This document shows positions 27,812 to 49,945 of a stretch of DNA of 64,000 nucleotides, piece after piece. Position 1 is the first letter of the stretch; each line of letters starts with the position of its first letter. Source of the DNA: Minisyncoccota bacterium. GTDB taxonomy: Bacteria > Patescibacteriota > Minisyncoccia > Phycocordibacterales > PALSA-1337. Position numbers and translations under genes: made by a program. Location: assembly GCA_028713005.1 (NCBI GenBank), contig JAQTPC010000004.1:2745-66744 (forward strand), read 5' to 3'. A model generated the notes under the pieces. It was given only the letters and a program-made list of their open reading frames with translations. It made no database searches and was not told the DNA's origin.

Positions 27812-28198
27812 TTACCAAATCTTAAAGAGGATTTCTCCGCCAAGTTTGAGCTTTTTTGCATCGACGTCAGTCATGATACCCTTTGAAGTAGTGAAGATGG
27901 TGTTACCAAAACCACTACGGAATGAGCGAATGTCTGCTGCTTTCTGATAAAGACGGCGTGATGGCTTTGAGATACGTTCTACACCGTTGATACGTGGTAC
28001 GCCATCAAAATAGACGAGACCAAGCTCAATCTCACGCTTTGTCTTACTCTTTTCTACAGAAGAGATATAGCCGGCCTTCTTGAGAACATGAGCAACATTC
28101 TCAGAGAGCTTCGATGCGATAACAGTGACTGATGCTTTCTTTGCATCACTGCTATTCTTGATACGTGTTATGAGGTCTGAAATAGGGTCTGTTACCAT
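27812..28198 (-). CDS. rpsH: 30S ribosomal protein S8
   Basis: [13 protein letters not shown] motif. Confidence 0.9.
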
Positions 28199-28377
28199 GA
28201 TGATTTCTTTATGCCTGGGATAATACCTTCATTGGCGAATTCACGGAAACAAATACGGCAGAGGTCAAAATCACGCATATAACCGTGCTTACGACCACAA
28301 CGGAAACAACGACGAACAACACGCGAAGCAAACTTCGGTGTTCTCTTTGAGCGTGCAATGACTGCTTTGGTTGCCAT
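28192..28377 (-). CDS. rpsN: 30S ribosomal protein S14 (zinc-binding type Z)
   Basis: 61 aa, [23 protein letters not shown] (C4 zinc ribbon). Confidence 0.85.
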
Positions 28378-28504
28378 AATTTGTATTAGGTAAAATGAGT
28401 GAAATTTTGAAAATAAAATTTCGATTGGTTAGCTTAGCCATTAATTTAGGCGTTTGCTTCCAATCACTGCCTCAGAACGAGCTTTTATTGAGGTAGGTAT
28501 GATA

Positions 28505-28547
28505 CTAGCAGATGATAGGAAATGAGTCAAATAAAAACCACCCTGCT
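28505..28547 (-). terminator. Rho-independent terminator after the NlpC/P60 gene
   Basis: Minus strand reads CCACCCCACTCATAGAGCAGGGTGG followed by TTTTTATTT. Confidence 0.5.
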
Positions 28548-28943
28548 CTATGAGTGGGGTGGCTGAGATGCTAATGCGTATATTTCGAGGAAATCAATTT
28601 TAGAAGTAACTGTCACTTTACATCCAAAAAACCGTGAACAATGTATCAACTCATTTGGCGAAGCAATTATAGCCATATGTGTCCAAATGAGATTTGAGGT
28701 ATTTGCTCTCCTTTTGAAAAACACACTATGACCAACTGGCATGAGATTAAACTCTTCCGGCGAGAGATGAAAATCTGTAGGCGGATACCCGGCATCAGTA
28801 AAAGCGGGCATTTCGATACCAGCTTCACGATACACTTCAATAACGAAATGAACGCAATGGAATGTATGCCAATCAAAAGGTTTTCCAAGATAGTTATGTG
28901 CAATTGTAACGATAGAGTTCGACAATGATGGTGAAAGAATCAT
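28548..28943 (-). CDS. NlpC/P60-family (papain-like) peptidase/amidase, small standalone
   Basis: The catalytic Cys context FHCVHFVIEVY and His context THMAII...ELIHCS are consistent with the C40 Cys-His-His architecture. Confidence 0.5.
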   Translation of the reverse strand: MILSPSLSNSIVTIAHNYLGKPFDWHTFHCVHFVIEVYREAGIEMPAFTDAGYPPTDFHLSPEEFNLMPVGHSVFFKRRANTSNLIWTHMAIIASPNELIHCSRFFGCKVTVTSKIDFLEIYALASQPPHS

Positions 28944-29137
28944 ACTTTCCTTTCTCTTTGATTATTTAATGAACAAAAAACCTGCCGATTAAGGCAGGTT
29001 TAGTACTTACACGCGTAAATACCTACCTGCCCTTAATGAGAGAAGCATAAACAAAACCTGACCACGTCTGAATGTGTTTATTTATAAGCATAGGTAGAAA
29101 TTATCACACAAATTACATATTTGCCAGGATTATTACT

Positions 29138-30220
29138 TTAGATATTAGTACTATTTAACGATGACGACATTATCTTACATGAAGCTGTAGATCCATCGTC
29201 AAACGCAACACCATCTCCGCTCACGGCAGCACTGTCATAACAATAACTTGAGCCAGAAGAATTTAAAACTGCAGAGATAGCATACGTCTCTCCTTCCGCA
29301 TAACAGGTAACAACATTTTTATCTTTTAACTGAACAAATACTGAAGCAAATGATGCGTCCGCAAACATTCCTTGTGAACAGCTTCGAGTCTTTGAATATG
29401 TATTATTATCTCCATAATAAACTTCTGCTTGAGTTCTTAACTGACTAAGCACTGTTCTGACTTGAGCATCTTGTCCTTTTTGGCGAGCAGAACTCAGTGC
29501 AACAAGTACAACCGATGACATGATACCGAATATTGCAATCATTGGGAGAATGCAAGCGATGATAATACCTACGACTAGACCAGCAGTATGAGGTTTAGCT
29601 GGATCTTTATATATCACAACACTATGTGCGAACATATCATGCAATCCTTGTTTCTTTGCCGTAAATCCAGCAATAATAAAACCGATACAAAGAATAATTT
29701 GAGAAACAAACTTGCCAAGAGTTTCGCGTAACAAAACTTTACCGAATGAAAGTTTTTCAAAGCTATCTGACTTAACAGTAATACCAACCAGCATTTTTCC
29801 AAGGGTCGCGCCGGAATAATATGTCATCAAAGTGAAATATGTCCATGTCAGAAGCAATGAGACAACATAAGATAATGCCCCGGCAGTCTGTGTAGCAGAT
29901 CCTGGGTTTTTTATTAAAATCAATCCTAAAAGAAACTGCGTCATGGCAATCGGTATAGCAATAATCAAGCTATCAACCATGATCGCGACAAATCTAACCC
30001 AAAAACCAGCATATTTTACATTTACAGGAGGAGTTGGAACAGTACCTGTAGGTGCAACTGGATTGTGAGCTGGCTGATTGAGTTCGAGAGTTGCAAAAGC
30101 ATCATTTACATCGACAAGATTCCATCCACCAGCACTTACGAGATTTTGTTGTATAGACTCTTTTGTTAAACCTTGTGCTATCTGTTGTTTGACGTACTCA
30201 AGCAATTGCGTATTTGCCAT
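29138..30220 (-). CDS. Membrane protein: conserved N-terminal helical domain + RDD-family domain + C-terminal type IV pilin-like region
   Basis: The N-terminus is paralogous to the next gene. RDD core runs RFVAIMVDS...YYSGATLGKMLVGITV. The C-terminal hydrophobic helix is followed by SSARQKGQDAQVRTVLSQLRTQAEVYYGDNNTY (pilin-like) and a Cys pair. Confidence 0.5.
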   Translation of the reverse strand: MANTQLLEYVKQQIAQGLTKESIQQNLVSAGGWNLVDVNDAFATLELNQPAHNPVAPTGTVPTPPVNVKYAGFWVRFVAIMVDSLIIAIPIAMTQFLLGLILIKNPGSATQTAGALSYVVSLLLTWTYFTLMTYYSGATLGKMLVGITVKSDSFEKLSFGKVLLRETLGKFVSQIILCIGFIIAGFTAKKQGLHDMFAHSVVIYKDPAKPHTAGLVVGIIIACILPMIAIFGIMSSVVLVALSSARQKGQDAQVRTVLSQLRTQAEVYYGDNNTYSKTRSCSQGMFADASFASVFVQLKDKNVVTCYAEGETYAISAVLNSSGSSYCYDSAAVSGDGVAFDDGSTASCKIMSSSLNSTNI

Positions 30221-30264
30221 AAAAATATATTAAGACTTGTAATTAGTGCCCTGATAATAGCACA

Positions 30265-31467
30265 TTATTTAAATGTAAAACTTGAGACAATACTCTCAGC
30301 ATCCTTTATCAAACTTAAGCCTCTATCTAGACTTGATTTGAATACAACACTGTATAGTGTGCCTCCATGCACTGCACTATATTGTAATATAGCCTCTCTT
30401 GCCGACTGATCTGAACCTGTACTGCTAACTGTAAAGGCTATCACAACCGCCTTTTCACCACTCAATGTACTTGAACTTACTTTACCCAATACTGCACCTG
30501 CAAATTCTGATTTTATAATCGTATCTACATTTTCAGAAGTGATGATTTGGTCAACCGAATCGATCAGTCCGGATGTATCAGGTATAGGTGTTATAGCAAC
30601 ACACATGATATAGCCTGAAGCAGAACTCGAGGCTTGCACACCCTGTCCCCCATTTGAGGTTACACTTGGTTTCCAACCTCTAGGTAGAGTAAACGAGTAC
30701 AATGCATTATCAACAATGCTCGATTTAGATTTTAAAGGAGATACCTGGGTATTCACTACTGGCACTTGACTGGTCTTTTTTGTAAACCTATCAGTAACTG
30801 ATTGAACTAGGTTTGGTTGGAAAAAATAAACATATGCACCAGCGCCGACAAAAGCACATATAATAAACACGAAAATCAAAATAAGAATACCTGAACGACG
30901 TGGTGAAGATGATTGCTGCGGAACAACAAACGCTTTTGATGCCACAGTTTGTGGCATCGAAGAAAAGCTTGGTGGTGGAGTAAATGTTCGTGGTGGTGTT
31001 GGAATTGGACTTGTCTGATATTGTTGAGCAAATGTTGCAGGTGGTGGCTTGGGAAAGCTAGCAATCGGTTGACTTGTCTGAACAGGATTTGATGGATACT
31101 GTGATACGGATGATACTGGTGGTTTTGGTGTTGAGATAGGTGTAGGAGTAATCTTGATTTCAATAGGTGGTTTAGGTGCGATCGGAGGTGCAGTGAATTG
31201 TGGTTTTGGAGCTATAACTGGCGTTGATACGGGCACAGAAACTACTGGTATTACTGGGGCTGGAGTTGTGGGCACAAAAACTTTTGGACTTATTGTCGCT
31301 GTTGGCGTTTGACTAGTAACTACACTATGACCGAGTGCTATAAACGCCTCTTTGATATCAACTGCACTCCAACCACCTTCCGCAATAAGTTTTTGTTGTA
31401 CAGCTTCTGCACTCGAACCATGTGCCAGTTTATATGAAATGTAATCAAGTAATTGTTTATTTGTCAT
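30265..31467 (-). CDS. Single-pass membrane protein with same N-terminal domain, Pro-rich linker and extracellular C-terminal domain
   Basis: MTNKQLLDYISYKLAHGSSAEAVQQKLIAEGGWSAVDIKEAF is about 50% identical to the N-terminus of 29138..30220. It has a PT-rich spacer and a TM segment ILILIFVFIICAFVGAGAYVYFF. Confidence 0.45.
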   Translation of the reverse strand: MTNKQLLDYISYKLAHGSSAEAVQQKLIAEGGWSAVDIKEAFIALGHSVVTSQTPTATISPKVFVPTTPAPVIPVVSVPVSTPVIAPKPQFTAPPIAPKPPIEIKITPTPISTPKPPVSSVSQYPSNPVQTSQPIASFPKPPPATFAQQYQTSPIPTPPRTFTPPPSFSSMPQTVASKAFVVPQQSSSPRRSGILILIFVFIICAFVGAGAYVYFFQPNLVQSVTDRFTKKTSQVPVVNTQVSPLKSKSSIVDNALYSFTLPRGWKPSVTSNGGQGVQASSSASGYIMCVAITPIPDTSGLIDSVDQIITSENVDTIIKSEFAGAVLGKVSSSTLSGEKAVVIAFTVSSTGSDQSAREAILQYSAVHGGTLYSVVFKSSLDRGLSLIKDAESIVSSFTFK

Positions 31468-31533
31468 AGGAATATACTAAATATACACAAAGTATATCCT
31501 AGTACTGACACAATAACAGCTCCCACCTGTTGA

Positions 31534-33378
31534 TTACAGAAATAACCTCACCAACCTGATCTCCTCAAAGGTGAAACTACTGCCGAGGATATTTTTGACC
31601 GGCGAAAGTGCTCTACCACCCCCCTCTTGCATGCCCACTGCATGAAACGCCATAGAAATCTTTTTGAAACGTGTAACGGGGAGTGCATCACGAAGATGTG
31701 AAATATTCCATGTAGGATCTTCTCTTTTCTCATGTTCTATATGATTGAGGATAGTATCAAAAGATAGACCGCGCTCCGTTGCTACTTCACGGACAGATTT
31801 TCCCATGTCGATGAGGCTGCGAGTCACCTCTGCAGTAGGTATCTTTGGTTTTTTACCTTTTCTGGTTCGTTTAACCGCCTTTGCTCGATCTGCAAAATCT
31901 TCATCAGACTCACCGTCTTCTTTTGTCACCGGATCAGGGCCAAGGAATTTCTTTTGTCGAACATTGAGATCATCAGCTGATAACCCCATAAAATGGGCTT
32001 GGGCTTTTTTTGATTGTTCACGAAAGTGCTTATCGAATTCATATGCTTCCGGATGGATATGCAGGGCCATATCATTGAGTCCTGCCAAGGTAAGGCCGAG
32101 GAGCGACCGTACACGCGAGAGCGCTACATAACCCATACCCTTCTCAAAAGAACGTGACAGGTCGATATGTGCAGCGTCGAGAGACATGCCCTGACTCTTA
32201 TGGATGGTTATAGCCCATGCGAGGCGTAGAGGATACTGTTCAATCTCAGCCAACGTCCTATCTCCCTCATCGACACGCCAGCTTTCGAGTGGTACATCTA
32301 TCTCTCTACCATCAAGCGTTTTGACGACGATACTGTCATAGGTACATTCAGCGACAATGCCACGTGTGCCGTTGGCATATCCAACTTCCCAATTATTTTT
32401 TACAAACATGACTTGTGCGCCAACTTTAAGCCTGAGAACCTCAGGCGCCAAGCAAGATTTCTTTAAACCTTCAATGAGCTTTTTGTTCCCGTGTGAAATC
32501 ATCTTATACTCCAAGAATCCCCCAGGAACTGCATTGAGCTCGCGATCATTTTCGGCATCAACATCGCTATTGTGAGAATAGAGTCGTGTTGCTTTTATGT
32601 TTTCAGTTAAAATCGTAGGAATTTCAATAGGAATATCTGTTTCGCTTTTCTTTTTAACTTCATCTTCATCACCGATAAAGACCACGTCTTCTTCAGAACC
32701 CATGTGCTCATCAGTTAAAAACTCTATGCCATCATCCTCTTTTTTATTACGAGAAATAATACGGCCATTTAATAAGTCCATCATATCTGTTGAGAGCGAC
32801 TGGGCACGAATACCATTTAAAATTCCAACATACTCCTTGTCCAACTGACGATGTTGCTCTTCGAGATAACAGACAACAAAGTTAGCCTCCTTCCAAGCCT
32901 TTGAATGATACGCGAAATACGCATCAGGCTCGCCCCCACGAGATATTGGAGGCAATTGGAAAAAATCTCCACACACCACAACCTGTAAGCCTCCGAATGG
33001 CGCGTCTGACTTACGAATCTTCTTCACGATTTCATTTATGAGATCCAAACGAAAATGATGGAGCATGGATATCTCATCGATGATAAGAACTTTGGCCGCT
33101 TCTATCTTTGTCTTTACATAACTCTTTTCTGATATTTCCTCGAGATCTTGTTCTGAGAGAGTGTCGCGTACGCCGACACCAGACCATGAGTGGATCGTGA
33201 CGCCGCCCATATGGGTCGCTGCGATACCAGTAGAAGCTGTGATACCAACGGGTATTTCTCGTTCACGTAAGCACTGTAGATATTCTCGAAGAACATAGGT
33301 TTTGCCGCTGCCCGCTGGTCCGGTCAGAAAAACGTTCGCTCCTGTTTTGAGGATATTTAATGCTTCAGCTTGGGTCAT
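31534..33378 (-). CDS. Pif1/RecD-family 5'-3' DNA helicase with C-terminal HTH-like extension
   Basis: Walker A GPAGSGKTY, Walker B LIIDEISM, the GDFFQLPPI motif, and C-terminal ITIHKSQGMSLD...YVALSRV. Confidence 0.75.
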   Translation of the reverse strand: MTQAEALNILKTGANVFLTGPAGSGKTYVLREYLQCLREREIPVGITASTGIAATHMGGVTIHSWSGVGVRDTLSEQDLEEISEKSYVKTKIEAAKVLIIDEISMLHHFRLDLINEIVKKIRKSDAPFGGLQVVVCGDFFQLPPISRGGEPDAYFAYHSKAWKEANFVVCYLEEQHRQLDKEYVGILNGIRAQSLSTDMMDLLNGRIISRNKKEDDGIEFLTDEHMGSEEDVVFIGDEDEVKKKSETDIPIEIPTILTENIKATRLYSHNSDVDAENDRELNAVPGGFLEYKMISHGNKKLIEGLKKSCLAPEVLRLKVGAQVMFVKNNWEVGYANGTRGIVAECTYDSIVVKTLDGREIDVPLESWRVDEGDRTLAEIEQYPLRLAWAITIHKSQGMSLDAAHIDLSRSFEKGMGYVALSRVRSLLGLTLAGLNDMALHIHPEAYEFDKHFREQSKKAQAHFMGLSADDLNVRQKKFLGPDPVTKEDGESDEDFADRAKAVKRTRKGKKPKIPTAEVTRSLIDMGKSVREVATERGLSFDTILNHIEHEKREDPTWNISHLRDALPVTRFKKISMAFHAVGMQEGGGRALSPVKNILGSSFTFEEIRLVRLFL

Positions 33379-33437
33379 GGGTGCTAGTATATCACCTCAA
33401 ATAAAAAATCCCGACACAACCTGTGTCGGGAGCGATA

Positions 33438-34607
33438 CTAGCAATTCTTCCAAAGCGAGCTCAGGCTCGGATTGCGTGCCAACGAATAATTTGAATAATC
33501 GAGATCATCCGTCACATCTCGCGATTTTCCGAGAAAATCCGGAAGCGAGACTTGGTCGTTCGCATCCGTCAGCTCGATCTCGAGCATAACCAACCCTTGA
33601 TGTAGGCCTAAGAATACATCCAGCTCAAAATACTGATCTTTGTAAACAAAGGTTTTACGAGTCTTTGTGACAGGACAGCAGTCGGGCTTGGCGAATCTCA
33701 GCAACCGAGTGAACTCTGAAGCAGTAATGATGCTTTCAGTTTCATAACGCCCGAAACTACCAGAAAATCCTGGCAGCGTCTTTTTGATCGTCCGATAGCA
33801 CGTCGTTATCCCGCGCCAGGTGCGCATGCGGATTCGTTCATCCCCTTCTGGAGTCTTGATGTAATACTGAACGATTGAGACGTTCTCGTGAGGAACCGAA
33901 ATCAGAGGCTCATTTTTAAGATGGAACTTCCGTTCAATCTCAATCGGCACTGGGATACCGAGAATATGAGTGATCGCTGCAACAGACTTCCGCACCTTAG
34001 TCTGCAGGTCGATGAAACCACCGTTACCATCTGTATTACTGATAACGACGAGATGAGGATGATGGATCCACGAACGTAACGTCCTTTCATCAAGCTCTTT
34101 CGCTTCCTCGACTGTTTCTCGGCGAGCAATGTTATTGGCGCATGTGTAAAGATGTGGCGCATCATATGCCAAACTGCGCAGATAGATGACGCCCTTATAC
34201 GGAACTTCCCCAAGCAAAGCGGCATCATAGCCCAACTTTTCGGCCATTTTAAAGAATACATCGGGTGAGATATAAGCCGAACCATCGAGACGACCTCGAT
34301 CGGTCAATATAACCTTGTGTTTTGCCTTGATACACTTCATCGCTTGGTGGTAGCGATATTCGCGTTCGACGGAAGCGAGAAGTATCTGCGTTTGGAAATC
34401 TTCTGGTGAACCGAAATCACCGAAAGAAAGCCCGTGAGTCGCAAATTCAGTTGCGATCTCAGGAACAACACAGGCATGAACCCCTTTGTCTTGAAGATGA
34501 CGGGTAGACTGCGCTAAGACGGTTGATTTTCCAGCACAAGCGCCACCTGTTTCAGCAATTGTCGTAATGTCACTTAATGCTAATGGATGAACGATTTGGT
34601 TGAGCAT
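33438..34607 (-). CDS. Fusion protein: AAA_28/NadR-like P-loop nucleotide kinase domain + CYTH (triphosphate tunnel metalloenzyme) domain
   Basis: N-terminal P-loop ETGGACAGKST, with a C-terminal domain opening on the CYTH hallmark EIERKF (ExExK). Confidence 0.55.
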   Translation of the reverse strand: MLNQIVHPLALSDITTIAETGGACAGKSTVLAQSTRHLQDKGVHACVVPEIATEFATHGLSFGDFGSPEDFQTQILLASVEREYRYHQAMKCIKAKHKVILTDRGRLDGSAYISPDVFFKMAEKLGYDAALLGEVPYKGVIYLRSLAYDAPHLYTCANNIARRETVEEAKELDERTLRSWIHHPHLVVISNTDGNGGFIDLQTKVRKSVAAITHILGIPVPIEIERKFHLKNEPLISVPHENVSIVQYYIKTPEGDERIRMRTWRGITTCYRTIKKTLPGFSGSFGRYETESIITASEFTRLLRFAKPDCCPVTKTRKTFVYKDQYFELDVFLGLHQGLVMLEIELTDANDQVSLPDFLGKSRDVTDDLDYSNYSLARNPSLSSLWKNC

Positions 34608-34705
34608 ACTACGATCCTTTCGTTGTGAGGGTTTATTTCAAAAAACTAAGACTGATCTGAGACTACTACAGCAGTACGTACCTGTAAACCCTGAACTTGA
34701 GAAAC

Positions 34706-34735
34706 AAAAAAACCACTCAAGGTGGTTTTTTCTTA
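34706..34735. terminator. Terminator after rplE
   Basis: AAAAAACCAC-TCAAG-GTGGTTTTTT. Confidence 0.5.
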
Positions 34736-34750
34736 CTTAAAAAAGTGAAA

Positions 34751-35323
34751 CTATTTCTTTCCTTTCTTGTCATCCTCCTTCTTGAGTGGGAGACCGAGGT
34801 ATTCGAGGAAACCGAGAGTCTGTGCTCTGTCACTTGAAGTTGTGACGAGAGTGATAGCAAGACCGAAAACATCCTTGAGGTCTTCATCTGATGTTTCTGG
34901 GAAGATAGTGTGCTCCTTGATACCGATCGTATAGTTGCCCATAGCGTCAACAGAGTTGCGTGAGAGACCGCGGAAGTCCTTTGTACGAGGGAGAGCGATG
35001 TTGATCAAACGATCCATGAAATCAAACATGCGTGGACCACGGAGAGTAATCTGATAACCGAGCGGATCGCCAACACGAGTCTTGAAAGTAGCGATGGCTT
35101 TCTTTGCGGCACGGGGAGCTGGCTTTTGACCAGTAATGCGTGCGAGACGCTCTGCAATGATCTCGATCTTTTTCTTATCCTTCACAGAACCGAAACTACT
35201 ACTGACAACCACCTTCTTGAGCTGTGGAGCCTGCATAGCGTTTTTGATATTCAACGTATCTTTGAGAGCTTTGAATGATTCTTTGTTGAGTTCGAGAACT
35301 GTTTTTTTGTGAGTAGTAGTCAT
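34751..35323 (-). CDS. rplE: 50S ribosomal protein L5
   Basis: L5 consensus throughout (PRMFDFMDRLINIALPR...). Confidence 0.9.
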   Translation of the reverse strand: MTTTHKKTVLELNKESFKALKDTLNIKNAMQAPQLKKVVVSSSFGSVKDKKKIEIIAERLARITGQKPAPRAAKKAIATFKTRVGDPLGYQITLRGPRMFDFMDRLINIALPRTKDFRGLSRNSVDAMGNYTIGIKEHTIFPETSDEDLKDVFGLAITLVTTSSDRAQTLGFLEYLGLPLKKEDDKKGKK

Positions 35324-35345
35324 GGCAATATATTAAAATGAAATG

Positions 35346-35564
35346 TTATTCAGTCTTTGCAACCTTTGAAGCATGCATAGGCATAGCACGGTCAACGATC
35401 TGACCCTTTGTTCCCTGCTTGCGAGACTTCTCGTGACGCTTCATCATGTTCATACCTTCGATGAGAACCTTTCCTGTAGCAGGAAAAGCCTTCATGACCT
35501 TACCTGTCTTGCCCTTGTCATCTCCTGAGAGTATTTTAACTGTGTCGCCTTTTTTGATATGCAT
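35346..35564 (-). CDS. rplX: 50S ribosomal protein L24
   Basis: MHIKKGDTVKILSGDDKGKTGKV (KOW motif). Confidence 0.85.
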   Translation of the reverse strand: MHIKKGDTVKILSGDDKGKTGKVMKAFPATGKVLIEGMNMMKRHEKSRKQGTKGQIVDRAMPMHASKVAKTE

Positions 35565-43600: not shown

Positions 43601-45373
43601 CTAATACGATGGCGTAGGAGCACACGAGTAACCAGTTGGGCACGGAGGTAAACCTATTGTGAAGTAGGCATCACTATAATCGTACGCTTGCATGGTTACT
43701 CCTTTGTTGAGGGTCACGTAAAGCCGGTACAAGCCCGGTGCTGTAAAATATGGCAACGAAACATTGACTAACAAACTGAAATTTTTAATTCCAGGCGATG
43801 CTACATGCTGCGTTGACATAAGTGTCTGCTTATTCAACGAATCTACAGCGTAAACATATACAGTATCACCAATCAGAGCAGAATCCCCTGTTACATTTAG
43901 TGTAACTGTCTTGTATGTTGATGTTTGCCACTGCTCCCCACCGTTTGGCGAGATAATATTGATATCCGGTACATTTGATGTTTGAGTTGAACTAATCGTA
44001 AACACATTGTCGCTTGAGTCACAGTTAGTTGTGCCCGTCTCGCAAATTTGAACAGTATATTGTCCATCGGGCATTGTTTGTACTATTCCTGAATAATTGA
44101 GAGCGGTGCCTACATTCCAACTATATGAATTTTGGTTAATCGGGATATTCGTAGCTATAGTATATGGCGCATAGGCAATAGCTGGACAAAATTGAGTAGT
44201 ACACACAAATTTCTGCATAATCTTGAGATCGGCATATGTGGCACGGAAATAGTAAGGAGATGACCATGTTATGTTTTGCGTCGTTCCTCGCACCCATGCT
44301 TCCCCGCCATTTGGAGAGATAATTTTGAGTGATCCGGCCGTTGTTCCACTAGTTACAACTATAGTTGAAGTAGTTTGAACCTGCTGACCAGAACTATTCA
44401 TAACTATAACCGTAACTGTGTATGTCCCCGGATTTATATATGAATGTGTAAATGTAGTCATTTGAGAAAACGTTGCCAGAGGATCAGCTACGCCTGCAGG
44501 CACATAATATGATGGCTCATCGCCCCAGCGAATACGATAACTCAACGTACCATTCAAGGGATCTGTAGCGCGCACAGTCCATGTCCCTGTTTGTCCAACT
44601 GCGAGAGTAGTTGGCGCATCGACACCGTTTATTACTGGAGCGTTACCTGTAGTAACCGGGTTGGATGTAATCGTAAAGTTTGAATCACTTTCAGCACACG
44701 TTGATCCATCTGCTGGGCAAATTTGTACTTTATATTGACCTTCTGTGATAGCACTTGAATCAAGTGGACACGATGAATCATCAATTGATGTGAGACACCA
44801 ATTTGCTCGTGCTGTACCCACGTTCCACGAGTATGATTTTGCACTCAAATTAACTCCTTTTGCAATAGTAAGAGGCGCACGAACCATAACCATACATTTA
44901 ATAGGTTGCCCTGGTTGTGCGCAGGCTGGAGTTGGGAATACAAGTTTAATATCTCCTTTTTGAGCCAGAACATTCGCTGAACCACTCCAGGTAATGTTTT
45001 GTATAGTACCCTTTACCCATGTTTCGCCACCATTTGGAGAAGTTACCTTAAATGAAGCGTTGTTCGGATTGCTATGACCATTGATATAGCCACGCGTCAT
45101 CGGTCCAAAATATCCAAATGCAGGAAAGCCTAATGACAGTTGATAGCGTATTAACGCCAACTTTGTTTGTGAACCAAAATATCCTTTGACTGCAACACCT
45201 GAACTGACAGATGGAATATCAAAACCATTTGATATCAGCCATGTCTGAAGATTTGTAACATCTGACCCAGAACTACCAACTGATAGATCATTTGAAAAGA
45301 CGAAGTTCTGCGCATGAGCATTCGCAAAGACAACTGTACACGCAATGATAGTTAAGATAATGTATTTTTTCAT
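43601..45373 (-). CDS. Secreted surface protein: N-terminal peptidoglycan-binding-like domain + three SPNGGE-W beta-sandwich repeats
   Basis: Signal peptide, PG_binding_1-like GSSGSDVTNLQTWLISNGF...GYFGSQTKLAL, and three repeats containing SPNGGE(T/A/Q)W..G....ITW. Confidence 0.55.
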   Translation of the reverse strand: MKKYIILTIIACTVVFANAHAQNFVFSNDLSVGSSGSDVTNLQTWLISNGFDIPSVSSGVAVKGYFGSQTKLALIRYQLSLGFPAFGYFGPMTRGYINGHSNPNNASFKVTSPNGGETWVKGTIQNITWSGSANVLAQKGDIKLVFPTPACAQPGQPIKCMVMVRAPLTIAKGVNLSAKSYSWNVGTARANWCLTSIDDSSCPLDSSAITEGQYKVQICPADGSTCAESDSNFTITSNPVTTGNAPVINGVDAPTTLAVGQTGTWTVRATDPLNGTLSYRIRWGDEPSYYVPAGVADPLATFSQMTTFTHSYINPGTYTVTVIVMNSSGQQVQTTSTIVVTSGTTAGSLKIISPNGGEAWVRGTTQNITWSSPYYFRATYADLKIMQKFVCTTQFCPAIAYAPYTIATNIPINQNSYSWNVGTALNYSGIVQTMPDGQYTVQICETGTTNCDSSDNVFTISSTQTSNVPDINIISPNGGEQWQTSTYKTVTLNVTGDSALIGDTVYVYAVDSLNKQTLMSTQHVASPGIKNFSLLVNVSLPYFTAPGLYRLYVTLNKGVTMQAYDYSDAYFTIGLPPCPTGYSCAPTPSY

Positions 45374-45451
45374 ATATTAATGATGACGGATGAGATCTTT
45401 AATCCTTTCATGGTATAACAAAACCGACCAAACGTACATTTATATACGTAA

Positions 45452-45485
45452 AAGCCCGAAACATAGTGTTTCGGGCTTTTTTTGA
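45452..45485. terminator. Bidirectional terminator
   Basis: AAAAGCCCGAAACA-TAGTG-TTTCGGGCTTTTTTT. Confidence 0.5.
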
Positions 45486-45509
45486 TGTATATAAGTAATA
45501 TATATTGAA

Positions 45510-46061
45510 TTACATAATAGTTGTCGACGTAGATACTGGTGGAAGTGGCGGGTTCTCAACTTGAGGAGGCAATTTACGAGTACTTGTGGCTGTTTTATTC
45601 TTAATTTCTTCACGAATAATCTTGCCTACAGTTGATGTCCCCATCTGTGCGCCATTGATAAGCTTTCGTGCTATATCAAGCTTTTCTTGTGGAATAATCC
45701 CTGCTTTGAAAAGAATAGTGACGACTTGTTCAGGTGTGAGACGATGTTCCTGTTCCTTTTTTTCATCATCAAGCTTATCTTTCATCGGGCGTGTTGATGA
45801 CGCAAATGGCATCATCGGACGAGTACTACTACCTACATCTCTTCTCACTGATGTACTCGCAACTCTATCCTTCACTTCAACCTTAAATATATTGCCGAAG
45901 CCAAATCCTGGACGTCCCTGCTTAAAAACATCCCCTGCTGCAGCTTGCTGTTGTGTATATGCCATACCACTTGATACAGCCTCAAGTACAGCTGGATTTG
46001 TGAAGGTGAGAATCGAGAGACCGCCAAGAACAAGAACGTATTTGAAGTTTTTTCCAAACAT
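45510..46061 (-). CDS. Secreted hypothetical protein
   Basis: N-terminal signal peptide. No family recognised. Confidence 0.4.
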   Translation of the reverse strand: MFGKNFKYVLVLGGLSILTFTNPAVLEAVSSGMAYTQQQAAAGDVFKQGRPGFGFGNIFKVEVKDRVASTSVRRDVGSSTRPMMPFASSTRPMKDKLDDEKKEQEHRLTPEQVVTILFKAGIIPQEKLDIARKLINGAQMGTSTVGKIIREEIKNKTATSTRKLPPQVENPPLPPVSTSTTIM

Positions 46062-46074
46062 AGATAATAATTAA

Positions 46075-49000
46075 TTATTGATTAAATGAAGCCCCGAGCC
46101 AGTTGATATTTCCGACCGCATCCCACACTGCAGCAGATGGCATATTCTTTGTGACAGTAAAGTTGATTGTATTACTACTCTGCTTTTCTCCGTACACTTG
46201 GAGTGAATATACTCCTGGTGTTGCAAATGATGGCACTACCCCGACCACCTGAGTTCCACTAATTGATTTTGGCGTTATCTTTGTAGTGAAACCACCGACA
46301 GTCGCCTTGATCACTGAACCTGTAACAAAGCCATACCCAGTTATTGTGACCGTAGTTCCTGCAGGACCACTCGTTGGACTGATTGAGTTGATCGTAGGAA
46401 GGATGACTGGAGCAGGAGTTGAAACAGTTGGAGTCGTAGGATTACTAACTATAGTAGTAATTGTAGTCGCTGTTGGGATTGTCGCGGTCGGAGATGATCC
46501 TCCGCCTGAACTACCACCAGTTGACGTCACAGGTTGCGGTGAGTTTGTAAATCCAAGTGACACAACCTCTTTGTCAGACCCAAAACTACTTCCATTTGCG
46601 TCATACCCAGTAAGTACAAATGTTACATTTGGATTTGTCGACTGAATTGTTCCGTTATTATTTGCATCAACAGTCAACAAGAGAATATCTTGCGTTACAT
46701 CATAGTAGTAGCTTGAGTAATACGTCTGTACTGTATTACAAAGTTCTTTTTGATCCGGCGTTCGCATAGTTATCCCTGATGAACAAGTGATATCAAGAGC
46801 CCACTTTGATATATTTTTGTTATTTGCATCACCTTTTATCGCAGCCCAGATACCAACAGTTTGATTTCCATTACTATAAGTTGGGCTGACGAGTAGGTTA
46901 ACGAAAGGTGTGACTGGAGGTACAACTACTCCGCCCACAGTAACTTGTGCAGGTTCACTGACGCGACCGGCATTTACCACATATAGATTTACCTTTGTAC
47001 CTACCGGTAGATCTGATGGTGCAATTGCTCCAATAAGAGTGTCTCCGATTTGTGTTACCTGAGCGACATCTTTTCCGTTATAGGCAAAATATACAGTTGT
47101 ATCACCTTTATTTGCCATGGCAAAATTCTTACCTTCAATGAAGAAACTTTCTCCAGGATAAACAGTGAAGTCTTCTGCCGCTTTAGCTGAGACGCGTGTG
47201 ATGACTGGCTGAGCACTTGCTGGTGAATTCACAATCTGAAAATAACCACTTGTGCCCTGGACACTACCCCCTTTTGACCATGCATCGTAGACTTGGATCG
47301 CATATGTGCCGTTTGGAATAGATGCATCATACTTCCAATCAAATGTTCCTGTATTTGGTGCAGTTGCAACAATTGTTTTTGCAATTGAAGTGTTGTTTGC
47401 ACTAGGGTTTACAAGAACAATTCCCACCATGTGATCACCGAGACCTTTTGAATTCCATTTGATACGTGCGATAAGACCAGAATCTTTTGCTCCACTATTA
47501 TCAAGTACGTTTCCAGCTTGAGGATAAGTTACATTGATAGAACCTGTACTAATTCCTACATCTGGTGCAATTATCGTAAATGGCTTAGCACTTGCATCAG
47601 CTATTGCATTACCCTTATTTGTTGCCCATGAATGAAGAATTATTTTATATACTGGTTTATCGGTAACTGTAAGATCCATTGTTCCCTGCATTCTTGGGAT
47701 AGCCCAATCGTAAGAACCAGTATTTGGAATTGAATAAGCAATTATTTGTTCAGGTCTTTCCCCAGCTTCCGTACTGTATCTAATGTCAATTAACCCTATT
47801 TGCACATTTGCAGTTTCTGCAGCACCTGTACTCTTCCACTTGATAGTCACCTTACCATCACCTTTATTTGCATTAAGTACTTCACCACCGTTTAAATTCA
47901 ACAACTTAATTGATGAATTTTCATTTTTTGTCGATGAAGCAGTTGAGAAAAATTCTGAATACCCTATACCACTCACAGCAACTTGACCCTTTGCTCCATT
48001 ATTTACCTGACTGATAGCAAGCTGATACTTACTTGAAACAATTTTTGGTGTCCAACTATATACACATGAACCCTTACCAAGACCATAGCACTTCACTTGG
48101 TCTCTAGTGAGATTCTCAGCAATATTACCTTTTCCATAATCATTGAACTCTGTGATAGTAAAAGTAGAATCGTTTGCTACTTTATCTGAGAACCAGATCA
48201 CGTTGTACTTCTGACCAACCTTGAGTACATCACCTTTCTTTGGAGAGTAGAAACTGATTTTGATTGGATTAGTAGTTGTTGTCGTACCACCAGCAGCACA
48301 TGAAGCATTTAGTTTTTGAATTGTCAGTGGACCTACAAAACCATATGATGGCAATCCGACACTTGTTTGATACAACTTAACTGCCTCTAGTGTTTGAGGA
48401 CCAAAGTATCCGGTTATAAATTCTTTTGAAAGAAAACCGTTAGTAGCGAGAAACTGCTGGAGAGCGGTAACATCTGCACCAGTTGAACCAGTAGTCATAT
48501 TCAAACTGAATACGTAACAAGGTGTTCCTGTACTTCCACCTCCGCCGCCACCTCCAGTTGAAATTGGCGCTACAGTGATCGCGTCCTTATCAGAGCCAAC
48601 AGTAACGGAGTCCATCTGTGCTGTTACTGAAAGACCAATAAGATGTGATACTGAATCTTTGACCTTATAGCCAATATTCAATACATAACTATTGGCAGCT
48701 TGTAAAAGACCATTCGTTAAGACCTCACCGCAACTGCCACCTCCTTTTGTACTGACATCTATTTCTGAAGAATTACATGAGATTGTAAAAGTTACAGAAT
48801 TAAACTGCTGAGATGAAGAAATTGTGTAATCAAAAAACTGATATCCGTCCGTTGTGCCTTTTGATACGGAATTCAATGTGATACCAGATGTTGGTGGATA
48901 CGAGATGTTTGGATAATTTATATAAATCTGACCACCAGCACCAATCGTTTCAACATATATTTTGTTCTGAGAATTGGAGAACTTAAAATCTGCTGGCACC

Positions 49001-49380
49001 GCCCAACTTACGCCGTTTTGTCCTTTAAAAATAGGACTTACAGACGCGATGTCAGTCACTTTGACCCATTGTGACCCGACAAGATTATACAATGAGACAT
49101 TTACTGGATTTACTGTTCCAGACTCATACCAACTAATATTATACGTATTACCAGGCTGTACATTTGTAACTGACTGATTGCCTGAATACACTAAAACATT
49201 ATCAATCGAAACAACCGGCGTTGTCACCTGTGCCTGTGTCGACACTGTCGATATAAAGGCGATACTAAAAAGAATAACAAGAGAAAGTAAACTGAGTGTG
49301 ATTTCTTTTTCCAGGTGCTTGTACATAGATGTGATGGATGATTTTAATAATATTTTTAATACGAACATGTAACGAGACAA
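46075..49380 (-). CDS. Giant (1101 aa) secreted/cell-surface protein with PG-binding-like domain, poly-Gly linker and C-terminal IPT/TIG-like domain
   Basis: N-terminal TM/signal, GSTGADVTALQQFLATNGF...GYFGPQTLEAVKLYQ (PG_binding_1-like), GGGGGGGSTG, and C-terminal PTINSISPTSGPAGTTVTITGYGF (IPT/TIG-like). Confidence 0.55.
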   Translation of the reverse strand: MSRYMFVLKILLKSSITSMYKHLEKEITLSLLSLVILFSIAFISTVSTQAQVTTPVVSIDNVLVYSGNQSVTNVQPGNTYNISWYESGTVNPVNVSLYNLVGSQWVKVTDIASVSPIFKGQNGVSWAVPADFKFSNSQNKIYVETIGAGGQIYINYPNISYPPTSGITLNSVSKGTTDGYQFFDYTISSSQQFNSVTFTISCNSSEIDVSTKGGGSCGEVLTNGLLQAANSYVLNIGYKVKDSVSHLIGLSVTAQMDSVTVGSDKDAITVAPISTGGGGGGGSTGTPCYVFSLNMTTGSTGADVTALQQFLATNGFLSKEFITGYFGPQTLEAVKLYQTSVGLPSYGFVGPLTIQKLNASCAAGGTTTTTNPIKISFYSPKKGDVLKVGQKYNVIWFSDKVANDSTFTITEFNDYGKGNIAENLTRDQVKCYGLGKGSCVYSWTPKIVSSKYQLAISQVNNGAKGQVAVSGIGYSEFFSTASSTKNENSSIKLLNLNGGEVLNANKGDGKVTIKWKSTGAAETANVQIGLIDIRYSTEAGERPEQIIAYSIPNTGSYDWAIPRMQGTMDLTVTDKPVYKIILHSWATNKGNAIADASAKPFTIIAPDVGISTGSINVTYPQAGNVLDNSGAKDSGLIARIKWNSKGLGDHMVGIVLVNPSANNTSIAKTIVATAPNTGTFDWKYDASIPNGTYAIQVYDAWSKGGSVQGTSGYFQIVNSPASAQPVITRVSAKAAEDFTVYPGESFFIEGKNFAMANKGDTTVYFAYNGKDVAQVTQIGDTLIGAIAPSDLPVGTKVNLYVVNAGRVSEPAQVTVGGVVVPPVTPFVNLLVSPTYSNGNQTVGIWAAIKGDANNKNISKWALDITCSSGITMRTPDQKELCNTVQTYYSSYYYDVTQDILLLTVDANNNGTIQSTNPNVTFVLTGYDANGSSFGSDKEVVSLGFTNSPQPVTSTGGSSGGGSSPTATIPTATTITTIVSNPTTPTVSTPAPVILPTINSISPTSGPAGTTVTITGYGFVTGSVIKATVGGFTTKITPKSISGTQVVGVVPSFATPGVYSLQVYGEKQSSNTINFTVTKNMPSAAVWDAVGNINWLGASFNQ

Positions 49381-49470
49381 GCACGTGCCTGAATGGCACG
49401 TGCTTGGGTAGATAGGAACAGTATAGCGTGATTAAAGATTCACGCAAACTAAGTTATCCCCAATCGAGAT

Positions 49471-49905: not shown

Positions 49906-49945
49906 ATAAATATGAAGACAATGATAATAGTCATAATGTAACACA

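What the first reader, a model, noticed from the sequence alone, without database searches (positions are those of the whole stretch)
29138..31467. Tandem paralogous membrane proteins sharing a ~45-aa N-terminal domain; one combines RDD and a type-IV-pilin-like C-terminus
The two N-termini are clearly homologous: MANTQLLEYVKQQIAQGLTKESIQQNLVSAGGWNLVDVNDAF versus MTNKQLLDYISYKLAHGSSAEAVQQKLIAEGGWSAVDIKEAF. Their C-terminal parts have diverged completely. One continues as an RDD domain followed by a hydrophobic helix and a pilin-like ARQKGQDAQ...LRTQAEVYYGDNNTY segment with a Cys pair. The other continues as a Pro/Thr-rich spacer, one TM segment and an extracellular domain. A pilin-like module embedded internally, rather than after a prepilin leader, is unusual. 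The pair may be a surface/adhesion module of the inserted cassette.
Basis: seen in the sequence. Interest (0 to 1): 0.6.

Follow-up and report, generated by a model that had tools for sequence, protein, structure and literature searches.

The report
Membrane-tethered pilin protein, split in two
Two neighbouring membrane-protein genes of an ultra-small (CPR/Patescibacteria) bacterium are the two halves of a protein that relatives make as one chain: a small cytoplasmic three-helix domain, an RDD membrane domain, a real type IV pilin domain buried in the middle of the chain, and a PsbP-like outer domain. None of these combinations appears in the literature searched.

Summary
ORF A (29138-30220, minus strand, 360 aa) and ORF B (30265-31467, minus strand, 400 aa) share a 45-residue N-terminal domain (44% identity, E=2e-12).

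**ORF A** is N-domain + RDD (Pfam 85.9 bits) + a genuine type IV pilin module.
- The pilin module aligns in register with about 70 canonical CPR prepilins, starting at their Gly(-1), and with solved PilA, geopilin and GspG structures.
- It follows 218 residues instead of a short leader.
- None of 59 family members has Glu5.

**ORF B** is N-domain + a disordered Pro/Thr linker + one TM helix + a PsbP/Mog1-fold domain (Foldseek E=1e-9).

The C-terminal parts did not diverge from each other. They are different modules. Relatives of 500-545 aa carry N-domain, RDD, pilin and PsbP-like modules in one chain, in one case at the same L5-PIF1-...-S14 ribosomal-operon slot. A+B is therefore a split version.

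RDD-pilin fusions recur in Saccharibacteria and in Magnetococcales, where a zinc ribbon replaces the N-domain.

The N-domain matches at least 5,515 protein clusters. These include cytoplasmic tail repeats of giant Woesearchaeota surface proteins. It is absent from Pfam and NCBIfam.

The most likely reading is a non-polymerising, membrane-tethered pilin/PsbP ectodomain complex. Its function is unknown. I rate it a new variant of known kinds, of moderate interest.

The parts
29138..30220 (-). ORF A, 360 aa: N-domain + RDD + internal type IV pilin module. It is 100% identical to the NCBI entry 'RDD family protein [Candidatus Pacebacteria bacterium]'.
30083..30220 (-). A residues 1-46: three-helix N-domain (helices 4-15, 20-29, 35-46). 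W33 is invariant. Y9, G17, L27, D37 and F42 are nearly invariant.
29609..30013 (-). A residues 70-204: RDD membrane domain. R76, D83 and D195 are invariant in 52 family members. Inferred topology is N-in/C-in.
29171..29581 (-). A residues 214-350: degenerate type IV pilin module. G218 corresponds to pilin position -1, I219 to +1, C223 to +5 (no Glu5), G232 to +14 and R246 to +28. The alpha1 helix spans 212-272, followed by a five-stranded sheet with four conserved Cys.
30265..31467 (-). ORF B, 400 aa: N-domain + Pro/Thr-rich disordered linker + one TM helix + PsbP/Mog1-fold domain. NCBI annotates it as a hypothetical protein (PHG25_01850).
31330..31467 (-). B residues 1-46: second copy of the three-helix N-domain.
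30898..31329 (-). B residues 47-190: Pro/Thr/Ser-rich linker with low pLDDT and no secondary structure. Inferred to be cytoplasmic.
   Evidence: topology is inferred
30826..30888 (-). B residues 194-214: single TM helix, preceded by the basic residues RR.
30268..30735 (-). B residues 245-400: PsbP/Mog1-fold ectodomain. It is homologous to the C-terminal module of the long fused RDD-pilin proteins.
28978..29001 (-). Terminator-like hairpin (9-bp stem plus T run) 137 nt after the stop codon of A. Together with the hairpin at 33409-33431 upstream of PIF1, it suggests a PIF1-B-A transcription unit.
   Evidence: a consensus scan only

Best explanation
A and B are the two halves of a modular envelope protein of CPR bacteria.

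**Full form.** In relatives the full form is one chain of four modules: a cytoplasmic three-helix N-domain, an RDD membrane domain, a type IV pilin module and a PsbP/Mog1-fold module.

**ORF A.** The N-domain sits in the cytoplasm. The RDD domain enters and leaves the membrane on the cytoplasmic side. The pilin alpha1-N helix then crosses the membrane outward and displays the disulfide-bonded pilin head outside the cell. The pilin part descends from an ordinary CPR pilin. It has lost the short polar leader, the FTLIE motif and Glu5. It is therefore most likely not cut off and not polymerised into a pilus. It would serve as a permanently tethered stalk and ectodomain.

[quoted passage not shown] The two proteins should therefore work side by side on the outer face of the membrane. 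They would form a binding or sensing unit coupled to the RDD intramembrane site. The shared N-domain would dock both chains to each other or to a common cytoplasmic partner.

**What is shown and what is inferred.** Shown: the homologies, the architecture, the fused/split relationship, the synteny, and the loss of pilin processing and assembly motifs. Inferred: the topology, the absence of cleavage, a physical A-B interaction, and the biological role.
For: **The pilin module is real and in register**
- PDB hits are all pilins or pseudopilins, always pairing profile position 20 with mature residue 6.
- About 70 canonical CPR prepilins align from their Gly(-1) to A's G218 at 30-40% identity over 110-130 residues.
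- The AF2 model shows a 61-residue helix plus a sheet, with pLDDT above 90.

**Processing and assembly motifs are lost** (59 family members)
- Position +5 is Glu in none of them.
- Positions -2 to -4 are hydrophobic rather than polar or basic.
- The zinc-ribbon branch (L013-L015) and Magnetococcales P0092 lack Gly(-1) in register altogether.

**The alpha1-N helix is used as a tether**
- In P0054 and P0058 the alpha1-N helix joins RDD directly to the PsbP-like domain, with no pilin head.

**A and B are a split form**
- Proteins of 504-544 aa carry N-domain, RDD, pilin and PsbP-like modules in one chain.
- B residues 216-400 hit that C-terminal module with E from 1e-14 to 3e-32.
- The fused P0005 lies in the same L5-PIF1-...-S14 gap.
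- The A/B pair is conserved in L004.
- A second PsbP_2 subtype is likewise fused in L013 and encoded by the adjacent gene in L007.

**Topology**
- RDD relatives have N-terminal zinc ribbons. Some have a C-terminal FHA domain with no TM helix in between.
- In giant proteins the N-domain repeats lie after the last TM helix, and some of these proteins have a hydrophobic N-terminal segment consistent with a signal peptide.
- B's single TM helix places the N-domain on the opposite side from the PsbP-like domain.

**RDD is under selection**
- R76, D83 and D195 are invariant.
- RDD has been reported to hold a cytoplasm-facing intramembrane binding site (PMC12419801).
Against: - Gly at -1 is kept in 41/59 members, and a small residue (G, A or S) in 54/59. 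A second Gly (G214, 43/59) follows a polar KPHTA stretch. Cleavage by prepilin peptidase therefore cannot be excluded from sequence.
- Positions 6-28 of alpha1-N are almost identical to those of real pilins. This could mean the module still interacts with pilins or the pilus machinery.
- No direct evidence shows that A binds B. A B homologue occurs without an adjacent A in L001.
- No function can be assigned to the N-domain, the RDD domain or the PsbP-like domain.
Confidence: 0.5

Rival explanations
1. A is a prepilin with a giant leader. Prepilin peptidase cuts after G218 (or G214). The N-domain and RDD part stays in the membrane. The released Glu5-less pilin primes or caps a type IV pilus. 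In the fused relatives this pilin carries the PsbP-like module at the pilus tip as an adhesin. In this genome, B would supply that module separately.
For: - A small residue occupies -1 in 54/59 members, and G214 is conserved in 43/59.
- Tip-capping minor pilins characteristically lack Glu5, and filaments grow from tip to base (PMC10191384).
- Pilins with C-terminally grafted modules are widespread and thought to be tip-exposed (PMC8179133).
- Some family members lie near T4P genes. L008 is 2.5 kb from a PilM...PilB...PilT cluster, L009 is near an N_methyl pilin, and L091 is near a T2SSE ATPase.
Against: - The whole FTLIE motif is replaced, not only Glu5.
- Residues -2 to -4 are hydrophobic, so G218 would be buried in the bilayer rather than at the interface.
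- The zinc-ribbon/Saccharibacteria and Magnetococcales fusions have no Gly at -1.
- Head-less variants (P0054, P0058) cannot be pilins.
- The RDD signature residues are invariant, which is unexpected for a disposable leader.
- B has an ordinary TM anchor and could not reach a pilus tip.
Confidence: 0.2
2. A is a tethered pilin mimic that docks into the type IV pilus machinery or the membrane pilin pool through its pilin-like alpha1-N helix. It would act as an anchor, terminator or regulator of pilus assembly, with RDD and the N-domain providing the control input.
For: - Positions 6-28 of alpha1-N (consensus LPxIAIxGILSSVVLVSLNxAR) are conserved across Paceibacteria and Saccharibacteria. They nearly match those of genuine pilins. 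B's plain TM anchor has no such conservation.
- RDD-pilin fusion recurs with a different pilin type in Magnetococcales (Pfam Pilin, 43.6 bits).
- Some family members lie loosely near T4P genes.
Against: - Without Glu5 and without a free N-terminus, the known subunit-subunit salt bridge cannot form (PMC10191384).
- The genes sit most consistently in ribosomal-protein operons, not in T4P loci.
- The pilin head is dispensable in some members.
Confidence: 0.12
3. A and B are functionally unrelated neighbours. The shared N-domain is just a very common, generic N-terminal module of CPR membrane proteins. The adjacency reflects a tolerant insertion spot in the ribosomal operon.
For: - The N-domain heads thousands of unrelated membrane proteins.
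- The L5-S14 gap holds different cargo in relatives, for example PemK+FolC in L001 and MFS in L090.
- A B homologue exists without an adjacent A.
Against: - B's ectodomain is specifically the one fused to RDD-pilin in at least 19 relatives.
- The fused gene occupies the same locus.
- An independent PsbP_2 subtype shows the same fused and adjacent pattern.
Confidence: 0.1

Closest known systems
Canonical type IV (major-like) pilins of CPR/Patescibacteria, for example the 135-180 aa prepilins at L016-L089 and the Saccharibacteria T4P pilins (PMC11623550)
   Same: - The whole mature-pilin region is homologous in register: G(-1), P/G pattern, GILSSVVLVSLNSARxKGxDA, AExYY, and a beta-sheet head with conserved Cys.
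- Identity is 30-40% over 110-130 residues.
   Different: - A's module begins at residue 219, after an N-domain and an RDD domain, rather than after a 5-25 residue basic leader.
- FTLIE is replaced by IIIAC or similar, and Glu5 is absent in 59/59 members.
- It is probably neither cleaved nor polymerised.
Modular pilins (S. sanguinis PilB/PilC type; Raynaud et al. 2021, PMC8179133)
   Same: In the fused relatives a pilin module carries a C-terminally grafted non-pilin module, here a PsbP-like domain.
   Different: [quoted passage not shown] Here the pilin is internal and lacks that motif, so such surveys would miss it.
- In the window the grafted module is on a separate protein.
RDD family (PF06271): B. 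subtilis SppI/YteJ, Halobacillus andaensis RDD, VanZ-RDD fusions
   Same: - Pfam score is 85.9 bits and R/D/D are invariant.
- A small cytoplasmic N-terminal adaptor occupies the same slot, zinc ribbon or GYF_2 in other bacteria and the N-domain here.
   Different: - No described RDD protein carries a pilin or PsbP-like ectodomain.
- The proposed functions (Na+/H+ antiport, PMC5996927; SppA inhibition, PMC7568657; a cytoplasm-facing intramembrane site, PMC12419801) do not explain this architecture.
Magnetococcales 'RDD family protein' P0092 and the Saccharibacteria/bin-281 proteins at L013-L015
   Same: - Same core architecture: cytoplasmic small domain + RDD + internal pilin lacking Gly(-1)/Glu5.
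- L013 also carries a PsbP_2 domain, and L015 has a C-terminal extension that got no Pfam PsbP hit.
   Different: - The N-terminal module is a zinc ribbon, not the three-helix N-domain.
- P0092 carries a T4a-type pilin (Pfam Pilin PF00114).
- They are single chains, not split.
PsbP/Mog1-fold proteins (cyanobacterial PsbP 2xb3; bacterial DcrB, LpqN, Apa/MTC28, Eag chaperones)
   Same: The fold of B residues 250-400 matches: Foldseek E=1e-9, TM-score 0.76 to 2xb3. The related domain in P0016 passes the Pfam PsbP cut-off (26.2 bits).
   Different: - There is no photosystem context.
- B itself is just under the Pfam cut-off (22.3 against 23.5 bits).
- It is anchored by an N-terminal TM helix and carries a cytoplasmic N-domain.
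Small three-helix repeat modules: RecX repeats (PF21982) and the phage TP-J34 Ltp HTH-like repeats (4eqq)
   Same: - The N-domain is a 45-residue three-helix bundle.
- Tandem-repeat versions of it give summed RecX_HTH1 scores (48 bits in P0126) and weak NCBIfam RecX hits.
- Ltp superposes over 40 residues at 1.6-1.7 Å with 30% identity.
   Different: - No single N-domain copy reaches significance against any Pfam or NCBIfam model.
- The profile search of PDB finds only de novo designed helical proteins.
- Ltp is extracellular, whereas the N-domain is inferred to be cytoplasmic.

Membership tests
Type IV pilin / type 4 filament subunit | [quoted passage not shown] | tested here: not met
   - The module starts at residue 219 of 360, after an N-domain and an RDD domain.
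- Gly is kept at -1 in 41/59 members, but residues -2 to -4 are hydrophobic.
- The sister branches L013-L015 and P0092 have no Gly at -1.
Type IV pilin / type 4 filament subunit | Hydrophobic alpha1-N with conserved Glu5 | tested here: not met
   The hydrophobic helix, G14 (54/59) and R28 (57/59) are present. Position +5 is A, C, V, F, S, T, M or I and never Glu (0/59).
Type IV pilin / type 4 filament subunit | Sequence homology to pilins over the mature region, in register | tested here: met
   - PDB search: single sequence E=0.003. The family profile gives 8e-7 (PilA 6xxd), 1.4e-6 (geopilin) and 2.4e-5 (GspG).
- tblastn to about 70 canonical CPR prepilins gives E from 1e-9 to 1e-20, starting at Gly(-1).
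Type IV pilin / type 4 filament subunit | Lollipop fold: a long alpha1 helix packed on a 4-5 stranded antiparallel sheet, with a C-terminal disulfide | tested here: inconclusive
   - AF2 gives helix 212-272 plus five strands with pLDDT above 90, and four Cys are conserved.
Type IV pilin / type 4 filament subunit | Cleavage and N-methylation by prepilin peptidase, and polymerisation by the T4P machinery | not testable with these tools
   This needs biochemistry. There are no T4P genes and no canonical prepilin in the 64-kb window.
RDD family (PF06271) | Pfam score above the gathering threshold, and conserved Arg/Asp/Asp | tested here: met
   The score is 85.9 bits against 24.1, covering residues 70-198. 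R76, D83 and D195 are invariant in 52 sequences.
PsbP / Mog1 superfamily (ORF B C-terminal domain) | Pfam PsbP or PsbP_2 score above the gathering threshold | tested here: not met
   B scores 22.3 bits against a cut-off of 23.5. The homologous domain in P0016 scores 26.2 bits.
PsbP / Mog1 superfamily (ORF B C-terminal domain) | Alpha/beta sandwich fold superposable on PsbP | tested here: met
   Foldseek against PDB gives 2xb3 at E=1.1e-9 and TM-score (target) 0.76, with 43 hits at E<=1e-3. All are PsbP, Mog1, DcrB, LpqN or Eag-type. Model pLDDT is about 90 for residues 250-400.
RecX-type three-helix repeat (N-domain) | A significant match of a single domain copy to RecX_HTH models | tested here: inconclusive
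   - A and B give no hit at E<=1.
- Only multi-repeat archaeal proteins reach the summed score, with no stretch passing on its own.
- The PDB profile search finds no RecX.
Mobile genetic cassette | Flanking repeats, a recombinase, and variable presence at the site | tested here: not met
   - There are no significant flanking direct or inverted repeats and no integrase in 28000-35500.
- PIF1 plus a B homologue or the fused gene is conserved at this slot in related genomes, with some variable cargo.

The most novel reading that the evidence does not exclude
Two linked readings remain open.

1. RDD-pilin proteins are a previously unrecognised class of type 4 filament component. One possibility is a prepilin with a 218-residue polytopic 'leader', processed to give a Glu5-less, adhesin-bearing tip subunit. 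The other is a membrane-anchored pilin that nucleates or anchors CPR pili. Either would tie pilus biogenesis to an RDD membrane sensor.
2. The 45-residue N-domain is a CPR/DPANN-wide cytoplasmic adaptor. It would connect many surface proteins, including giant archaeal adhesins, to one common intracellular partner. That would be a shared cell-biological device of ultra-small episymbionts.
Probability: 0.2. Interest if true: 0.8.

Novelty: new variant of a known kind. Interest (0 to 1): 0.55.

Why it matters
**Pili and episymbiosis.** Type IV pili are the best-supported attachment and host-recognition devices of CPR/Patescibacteria. A conserved family carries a bona fide pilin domain welded behind a polytopic RDD domain and often extended by a PsbP-like domain. 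Motif-based pilin surveys require an N-terminal class III signal, so they miss this family. It shows that pilin folds are reused as tethered ectodomains, or else that prepilin processing is more flexible than assumed.

**RDD function.** The recurrence of RDD-pilin fusion in Paceibacteria, Saccharibacteria and Magnetococcales gives the enigmatic RDD domain a concrete, testable extracellular partner.

**The split pair.** The fused and split (Rosetta-stone) relationship predicts an A-B complex that can be tested directly.

**A new domain family.** The N-domain matches at least 5,515 clusters, is absent from Pfam and NCBIfam, and is shared by CPR bacteria and DPANN archaea. It merits a domain-family description.

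Tried and rejected
- **Third database search wasted.** The third homologous-protein search, with the N-domain profile, returned only 7 short proteins. The word-index candidate step is unsuited to a 47-residue profile.
- Only the six-sequence A7 worked. Whether phages carry the N-domain was therefore not tested.
- **N-domain against PDB.** Two profile searches gave only de novo designed helical proteins and chance hits. NCBIfam gave nothing for A or B. UBA, Cation_ATPase_N, RepB_primase_C and similar hits were single, inconsistent matches and were rejected.
- **Taxonomy.** Cluster look-ups gave few names.
- **Literature.** Searches for RDD+pilin+Patescibacteria and for RDD-family papers found no description of this architecture.
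- **Ideas considered and rejected.**
  - A recent tandem duplication: the DNA matches at only about 55% of aligned columns.
  - A mobile cassette.
  - An extracellular N-domain by analogy with Ltp: contradicted by the topology of the giant proteins, the zinc-ribbon equivalence and B's single TM helix.
Full report
**1. Observation**

The window carries two co-oriented minus-strand ORFs exactly at the reported coordinates: A (29138-30220, 360 aa) and B (30265-31467, 400 aa). BLASTP of A against B finds one significant segment, residues 1-45 of both. It has 20/45 identities, 32/45 positives and no gaps, with E=2e-12. Everything else is noise. An HMM built from the two N-termini finds no further copy among the 439 ORFs of at least 40 aa in the window. 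At the DNA level the two N-domain regions match at only about 55% of aligned columns, so the duplication is old.

**2. Context**

The window is a CPR (Paceibacteria-like) ribosomal-protein and translation-factor region. The order is EF-G, EF-Tu, S10, L3, L4, L23, L2, S19 ... L14, L5, then S14, S8, L6, L18, S5, L15, SecY. A is 100% identical to an NCBI 'RDD family protein [Candidatus Pacebacteria bacterium]'. B is identical to 'hypothetical protein PHG25_01850' on the same 74-kb MAG contig.

The gap between L5 (34751-35323) and S14 (28192-28377) holds five genes:
- an AAA_28-CYTH protein
- a PIF1-type helicase with a C-terminal HTH_40 domain
- B
- A
- a weak NlpC/P60-like ORF

Terminator-like hairpins lie before PIF1 (33409-33431) and after A (28978-29001). 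This suggests a PIF1-B-A transcription unit. No flanking repeats or recombinase mark a mobile element.

Related genomes keep the same slot occupied:
- L5-PIF1-B homologue-PemK-FolC-S14 (L001)
- PIF1-B homologue-A homologue-S14 (L004)
- L5-...-PIF1-MFS-[544-aa fused protein]-S14 (L090)

**3. ORF A**

*RDD.* Pfam RDD covers residues 70-198 (85.9 bits against a cut-off of 24.1). R76, D83 and D195 are invariant in a 52-sequence family alignment.

*Pilin homology.* The region after RDD is a true pilin module.
- phmmer against PDB aligns A residues 224-286 with residues 6-68 of mature Thermus PilA (6xxd, E=0.003), and with geopilin and GspG.
- A 25-sequence family profile improves these to 8e-7, 1.4e-6 and 2.4e-5. 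Profile position 20 always pairs with mature residue 6.
- A scan of one genome per GTDB species with the pilin part returned 80 loci. About 70 encode ordinary prepilins of 135-180 aa with a short basic leader and G|FTLIELLVVIAIIGILSSVVLVSLNSAR. The tblastn alignments begin at query residue 14, which is A's G218 and corresponds to pilin position -1. They run 110-130 residues at 30-40% identity.

So G218 is position -1, I219 is +1, C223 is +5, G232 is +14 and R246 is +28.

*Model.* The AF2 model has mean pLDDT 88.6. It shows three short helices (4-15, 20-29, 35-46), the RDD helices, a 61-residue helix (212-272) and a five-stranded sheet.

*Column statistics.* Across 59 family members:
- Position +5 is never Glu.
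- Position -1 is G in 41, A in 9 and S in 4.
- Positions -2 to -4 are hydrophobic (I, V, L).
- G214 is conserved in 43/59, making a GxxxG motif.
- Four Cys are conserved.

**4. ORF B**

AF2 gives the same three-helix N-domain (pLDDT about 90), a disordered Pro/Thr/Ser-rich stretch (46-190), a TM helix (194-214) and a well-predicted alpha/beta domain (250-400). Foldseek against PDB matches that domain to cyanobacterial PsbP (2xb3, E=1.1e-9, TM-score 0.76). It also matches plant PsbP, Mog1, DcrB, LpqN, Apa/MTC28 and Eag chaperones. Pfam PsbP is just below threshold for B (22.3 against 23.5 bits). B has only four clear homologues in 5.8 billion proteins.

**5. A and B are a split form of one protein**

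About 70 clusters share A's RDD+pilin architecture, and about 30 of them also carry the N-domain. Members of 504-544 aa continue after the pilin head into a PsbP-like domain.

B's residues 216-400 hit exactly this C-terminal module in 19 such proteins, with E from 1e-14 to 3e-32 within the session set. The best non-B hits are close relatives of A (P0003, P0006). One fused protein (P0005) occupies the same L5-PIF1-...-S14 slot.

A second PsbP_2 subtype shows the same pattern. It is fused in a zinc-ribbon-RDD-pilin-PsbP_2 protein (L013). It is also encoded by the adjacent gene next to a Taylorbacteria RDD-pilin gene that likewise sits inside a ribosomal operon (L007).

Because B lies upstream of A, the pair is not a simple in-place fission. 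It is more likely a duplication with complementary loss, or a reshuffle.

In P0054 and P0058 the pilin head is missing, and the alpha1-N helix links RDD directly to the PsbP-like domain.

**6. Breadth of the RDD-pilin architecture**

Saccharibacteria and 'bin-281' genomes encode zinc-ribbon + RDD + pilin proteins without Gly at -1. One of them (L013) also carries a PsbP_2 domain. A Magnetococcales protein (P0092) is zinc ribbon + RDD + Pfam Pilin (PF00114, 43.6 bits against a cut-off of 22). It too has neither Gly(-1) nor Glu5 in register. RDD fused to an internal, motif-degenerate pilin is therefore recurrent. It is probably of independent origin in Proteobacteria.

**7. The N-domain**

A 28-sequence profile searched against 1.84 billion representative proteins gave 5,515 clusters at E<=1e-3 and 661 at E<=1e-10. 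In the best 138:
- It almost always occupies residues 1-45 and is followed by one or more hydrophobic segments starting near residue 60-100.
- It heads RDD proteins, DUF2157, UPF0259 and many unannotated single-pass and polytopic proteins.
- In giant proteins of 600-3,400 aa it forms 3-13 tandem repeats after the last TM helix. Several of these have a hydrophobic N-terminal segment consistent with a signal peptide. The ones scanned have Ig, cadherin or PKD-like ectodomains.

Two of these giants are named Woesearchaeota proteins, and one N-terminal example is from Patescibacteria.

No Pfam or NCBIfam model covers a single copy. Only repeat proteins accumulate weak RecX three-helix scores. The PDB profile search finds only de novo designed helical proteins. 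Foldseek superposes the domain on the phage Ltp repeat over 40 residues at 1.6-1.7 Å, but at E about 3. I treat it as an undescribed three-helix module.

**8. Topology (inferred)**

- RDD relatives carry N-terminal zinc ribbons. Some carry a C-terminal FHA domain with no intervening TM helix. RDD therefore begins and ends in the cytoplasm.
- The pilin alpha1-N helix then runs from inside to outside, as in ordinary prepilins. This places the Cys-rich head outside.
- In the fused relatives no TM helix separates the pilin head from the PsbP-like domain, so both are outside.
- B's single TM helix then places its N-domain inside. This matches the position of the giant-protein tail repeats.

**9. 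Mechanism**

The best-supported model (confidence about 0.5) is a tethered, non-polymerising pilin-fold ectodomain on an RDD membrane domain. It works with the PsbP-like ectodomain, in cis in relatives and in trans here. The shared cytoplasmic N-domain would act as a docking or association module.

Supporting points:
- Complete loss of FTLIE and Glu5. Glu5 normally forms the inter-subunit salt bridge (PMC10191384).
- Hydrophobic residues before Gly(-1).
- Sister branches without Gly(-1).
- Head-less variants.
- Invariant RDD signature residues.

RDD itself is of unknown role. It is reported to have a cytoplasm-facing intramembrane site (PMC12419801), to inhibit SppA in B. subtilis (PMC7568657), and to act as a cation/proton antiporter in one halophile (PMC5996927).

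The main rival (about 0.2) is that prepilin peptidase does cut at G218 or G214. This would release a Glu5-less subunit of the kind that caps pilus tips, with the PsbP-like module as a grafted adhesin, as in modular pilins (PMC8179133). Sequence alone cannot exclude this.

Two weaker rivals are a tethered pilin mimic that regulates the T4P machinery (about 0.12) and functionally unrelated neighbours (about 0.1).

**10. Novelty**

Full-text searches found no description of RDD-pilin proteins. JGI's automatic names ('RDD family membrane protein YckC/pseudopilin PulG') show that both halves are detectable but have gone unremarked. Surveys of modular pilins required an N-terminal pilin motif and would miss these.

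RDD, pilins and PsbP-like domains are all known. The new elements are:
- the internal, leaderless, Glu5-less pilin behind a polytopic domain
- its fused and split partnership with a PsbP-like domain
- the very widespread CPR/DPANN N-domain

I rate it a new variant of known kinds, with interest 0.55.

Noticed in passing
window 29609-30013 (A residues 70-204, RDD domain): The RDD membrane domain of the AF2 model best matches the TM domains of the peroxisomal Pex2/Pex10/Pex12 retrotranslocon (7t92 chains A-C; Foldseek probability 0.97-0.99, E 0.05-0.1). Weak Pfam Pex2_Pex12 hits recur in several family members. This may be a remote RDD-Pex2/12 relationship.
   Followed up: no
L004:4378-4620, L090:8643-8885, L091:8590-8832, L009:9104-9349: A conserved 80-aa two-TM protein (MxILDTIIQ...KKKKxKKWG...WGLVNI...KQ) is encoded immediately downstream of the RDD-pilin gene in four loci. 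It is absent from the window, where a terminator and an NlpC/P60-like ORF follow A.
   Followed up: partly
window 31534-33378 (minus strand): A PIF1-family helicase with a C-terminal HTH_40 domain sits between ribosomal protein genes L5 and S14. It is conserved at that position in several related Paceibacteria (L001, L002, L004, L090). This is an odd permanent resident of the ribosomal operon.
   Followed up: partly
window 33438-34607 (minus strand): A 389-aa fusion of an AAA_28 P-loop NTPase/kinase domain with a CYTH (triphosphate tunnel) domain lies directly after L5 and is followed by a strong terminator-like hairpin (33409-33431). It is not present at this slot in the related loci examined.
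   Followed up: no
window 43601-49944 (minus strand): The EF-G/EF-Tu junction is also interrupted by four genes:
- a 157-aa fn3 protein
- a 1,101-aa protein with PG_binding_1, a Kre9/KNH Ig-like domain and TIG
- a 183-aa ORF
- a 590-aa PG_binding_1 + PKD protein

Surface-protein genes are therefore embedded in the translation operons at more than one place.
   Followed up: partly
P0126, P0129, P0138, P0146, P0189, P0226 (proteins): Giant proteins of 1,000-3,400 aa end in one TM helix followed by tandem N-domain repeats. P0126 and P0138 are named Woesearchaeota. The ones scanned carry Ig, cadherin or PKD-like ectodomains. The repeats count up to 13 matched stretches in the database search and 3-6 at the stricter local threshold. 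The same 45-residue module is therefore shared by CPR bacteria and DPANN archaea.
   Followed up: partly
P0092 (Magnetococcales, NCBI 'RDD family protein'): This protein is zinc ribbon + RDD + a Pfam-significant T4a Pilin domain (residues 234-347, 43.6 bits) in a proteobacterium. The pilin is internal and lacks Gly(-1) and Glu5. It looks like an independent RDD-pilin fusion outside CPR.
   Followed up: partly
P0054, P0058, P0086 (family members): Architectural variants exist. In P0054 and P0058 the pilin head is deleted, and only the alpha1-N helix links RDD to the PsbP-like domain. P0086 (553 aa) has N-domain + RDD and a weak thioredoxin-like C-terminus (20 bits).
   Followed up: partly
window 30207-30233, 31454-31480, 35310-35336: The start regions of A, B and the L5 gene share a 27-nt motif on the coding strand (TTAATATAT..(T/C)(T/C)TATG(G/A)CAAATA...) at 74-78% identity. 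It spans the start codon and the AT-rich upstream sequence, and may be a common translation-initiation or promoter context.
   Followed up: no
window 28548-28943 (minus strand): A 131-aa ORF has only weak NlpC/P60 similarity (17.4 bits, below the cut-off) and no obvious signal peptide. It sits between A and S14 and has its own terminator-like hairpin (28538-28557). The related locus L004 has two small TM proteins at this position instead.
   Followed up: no
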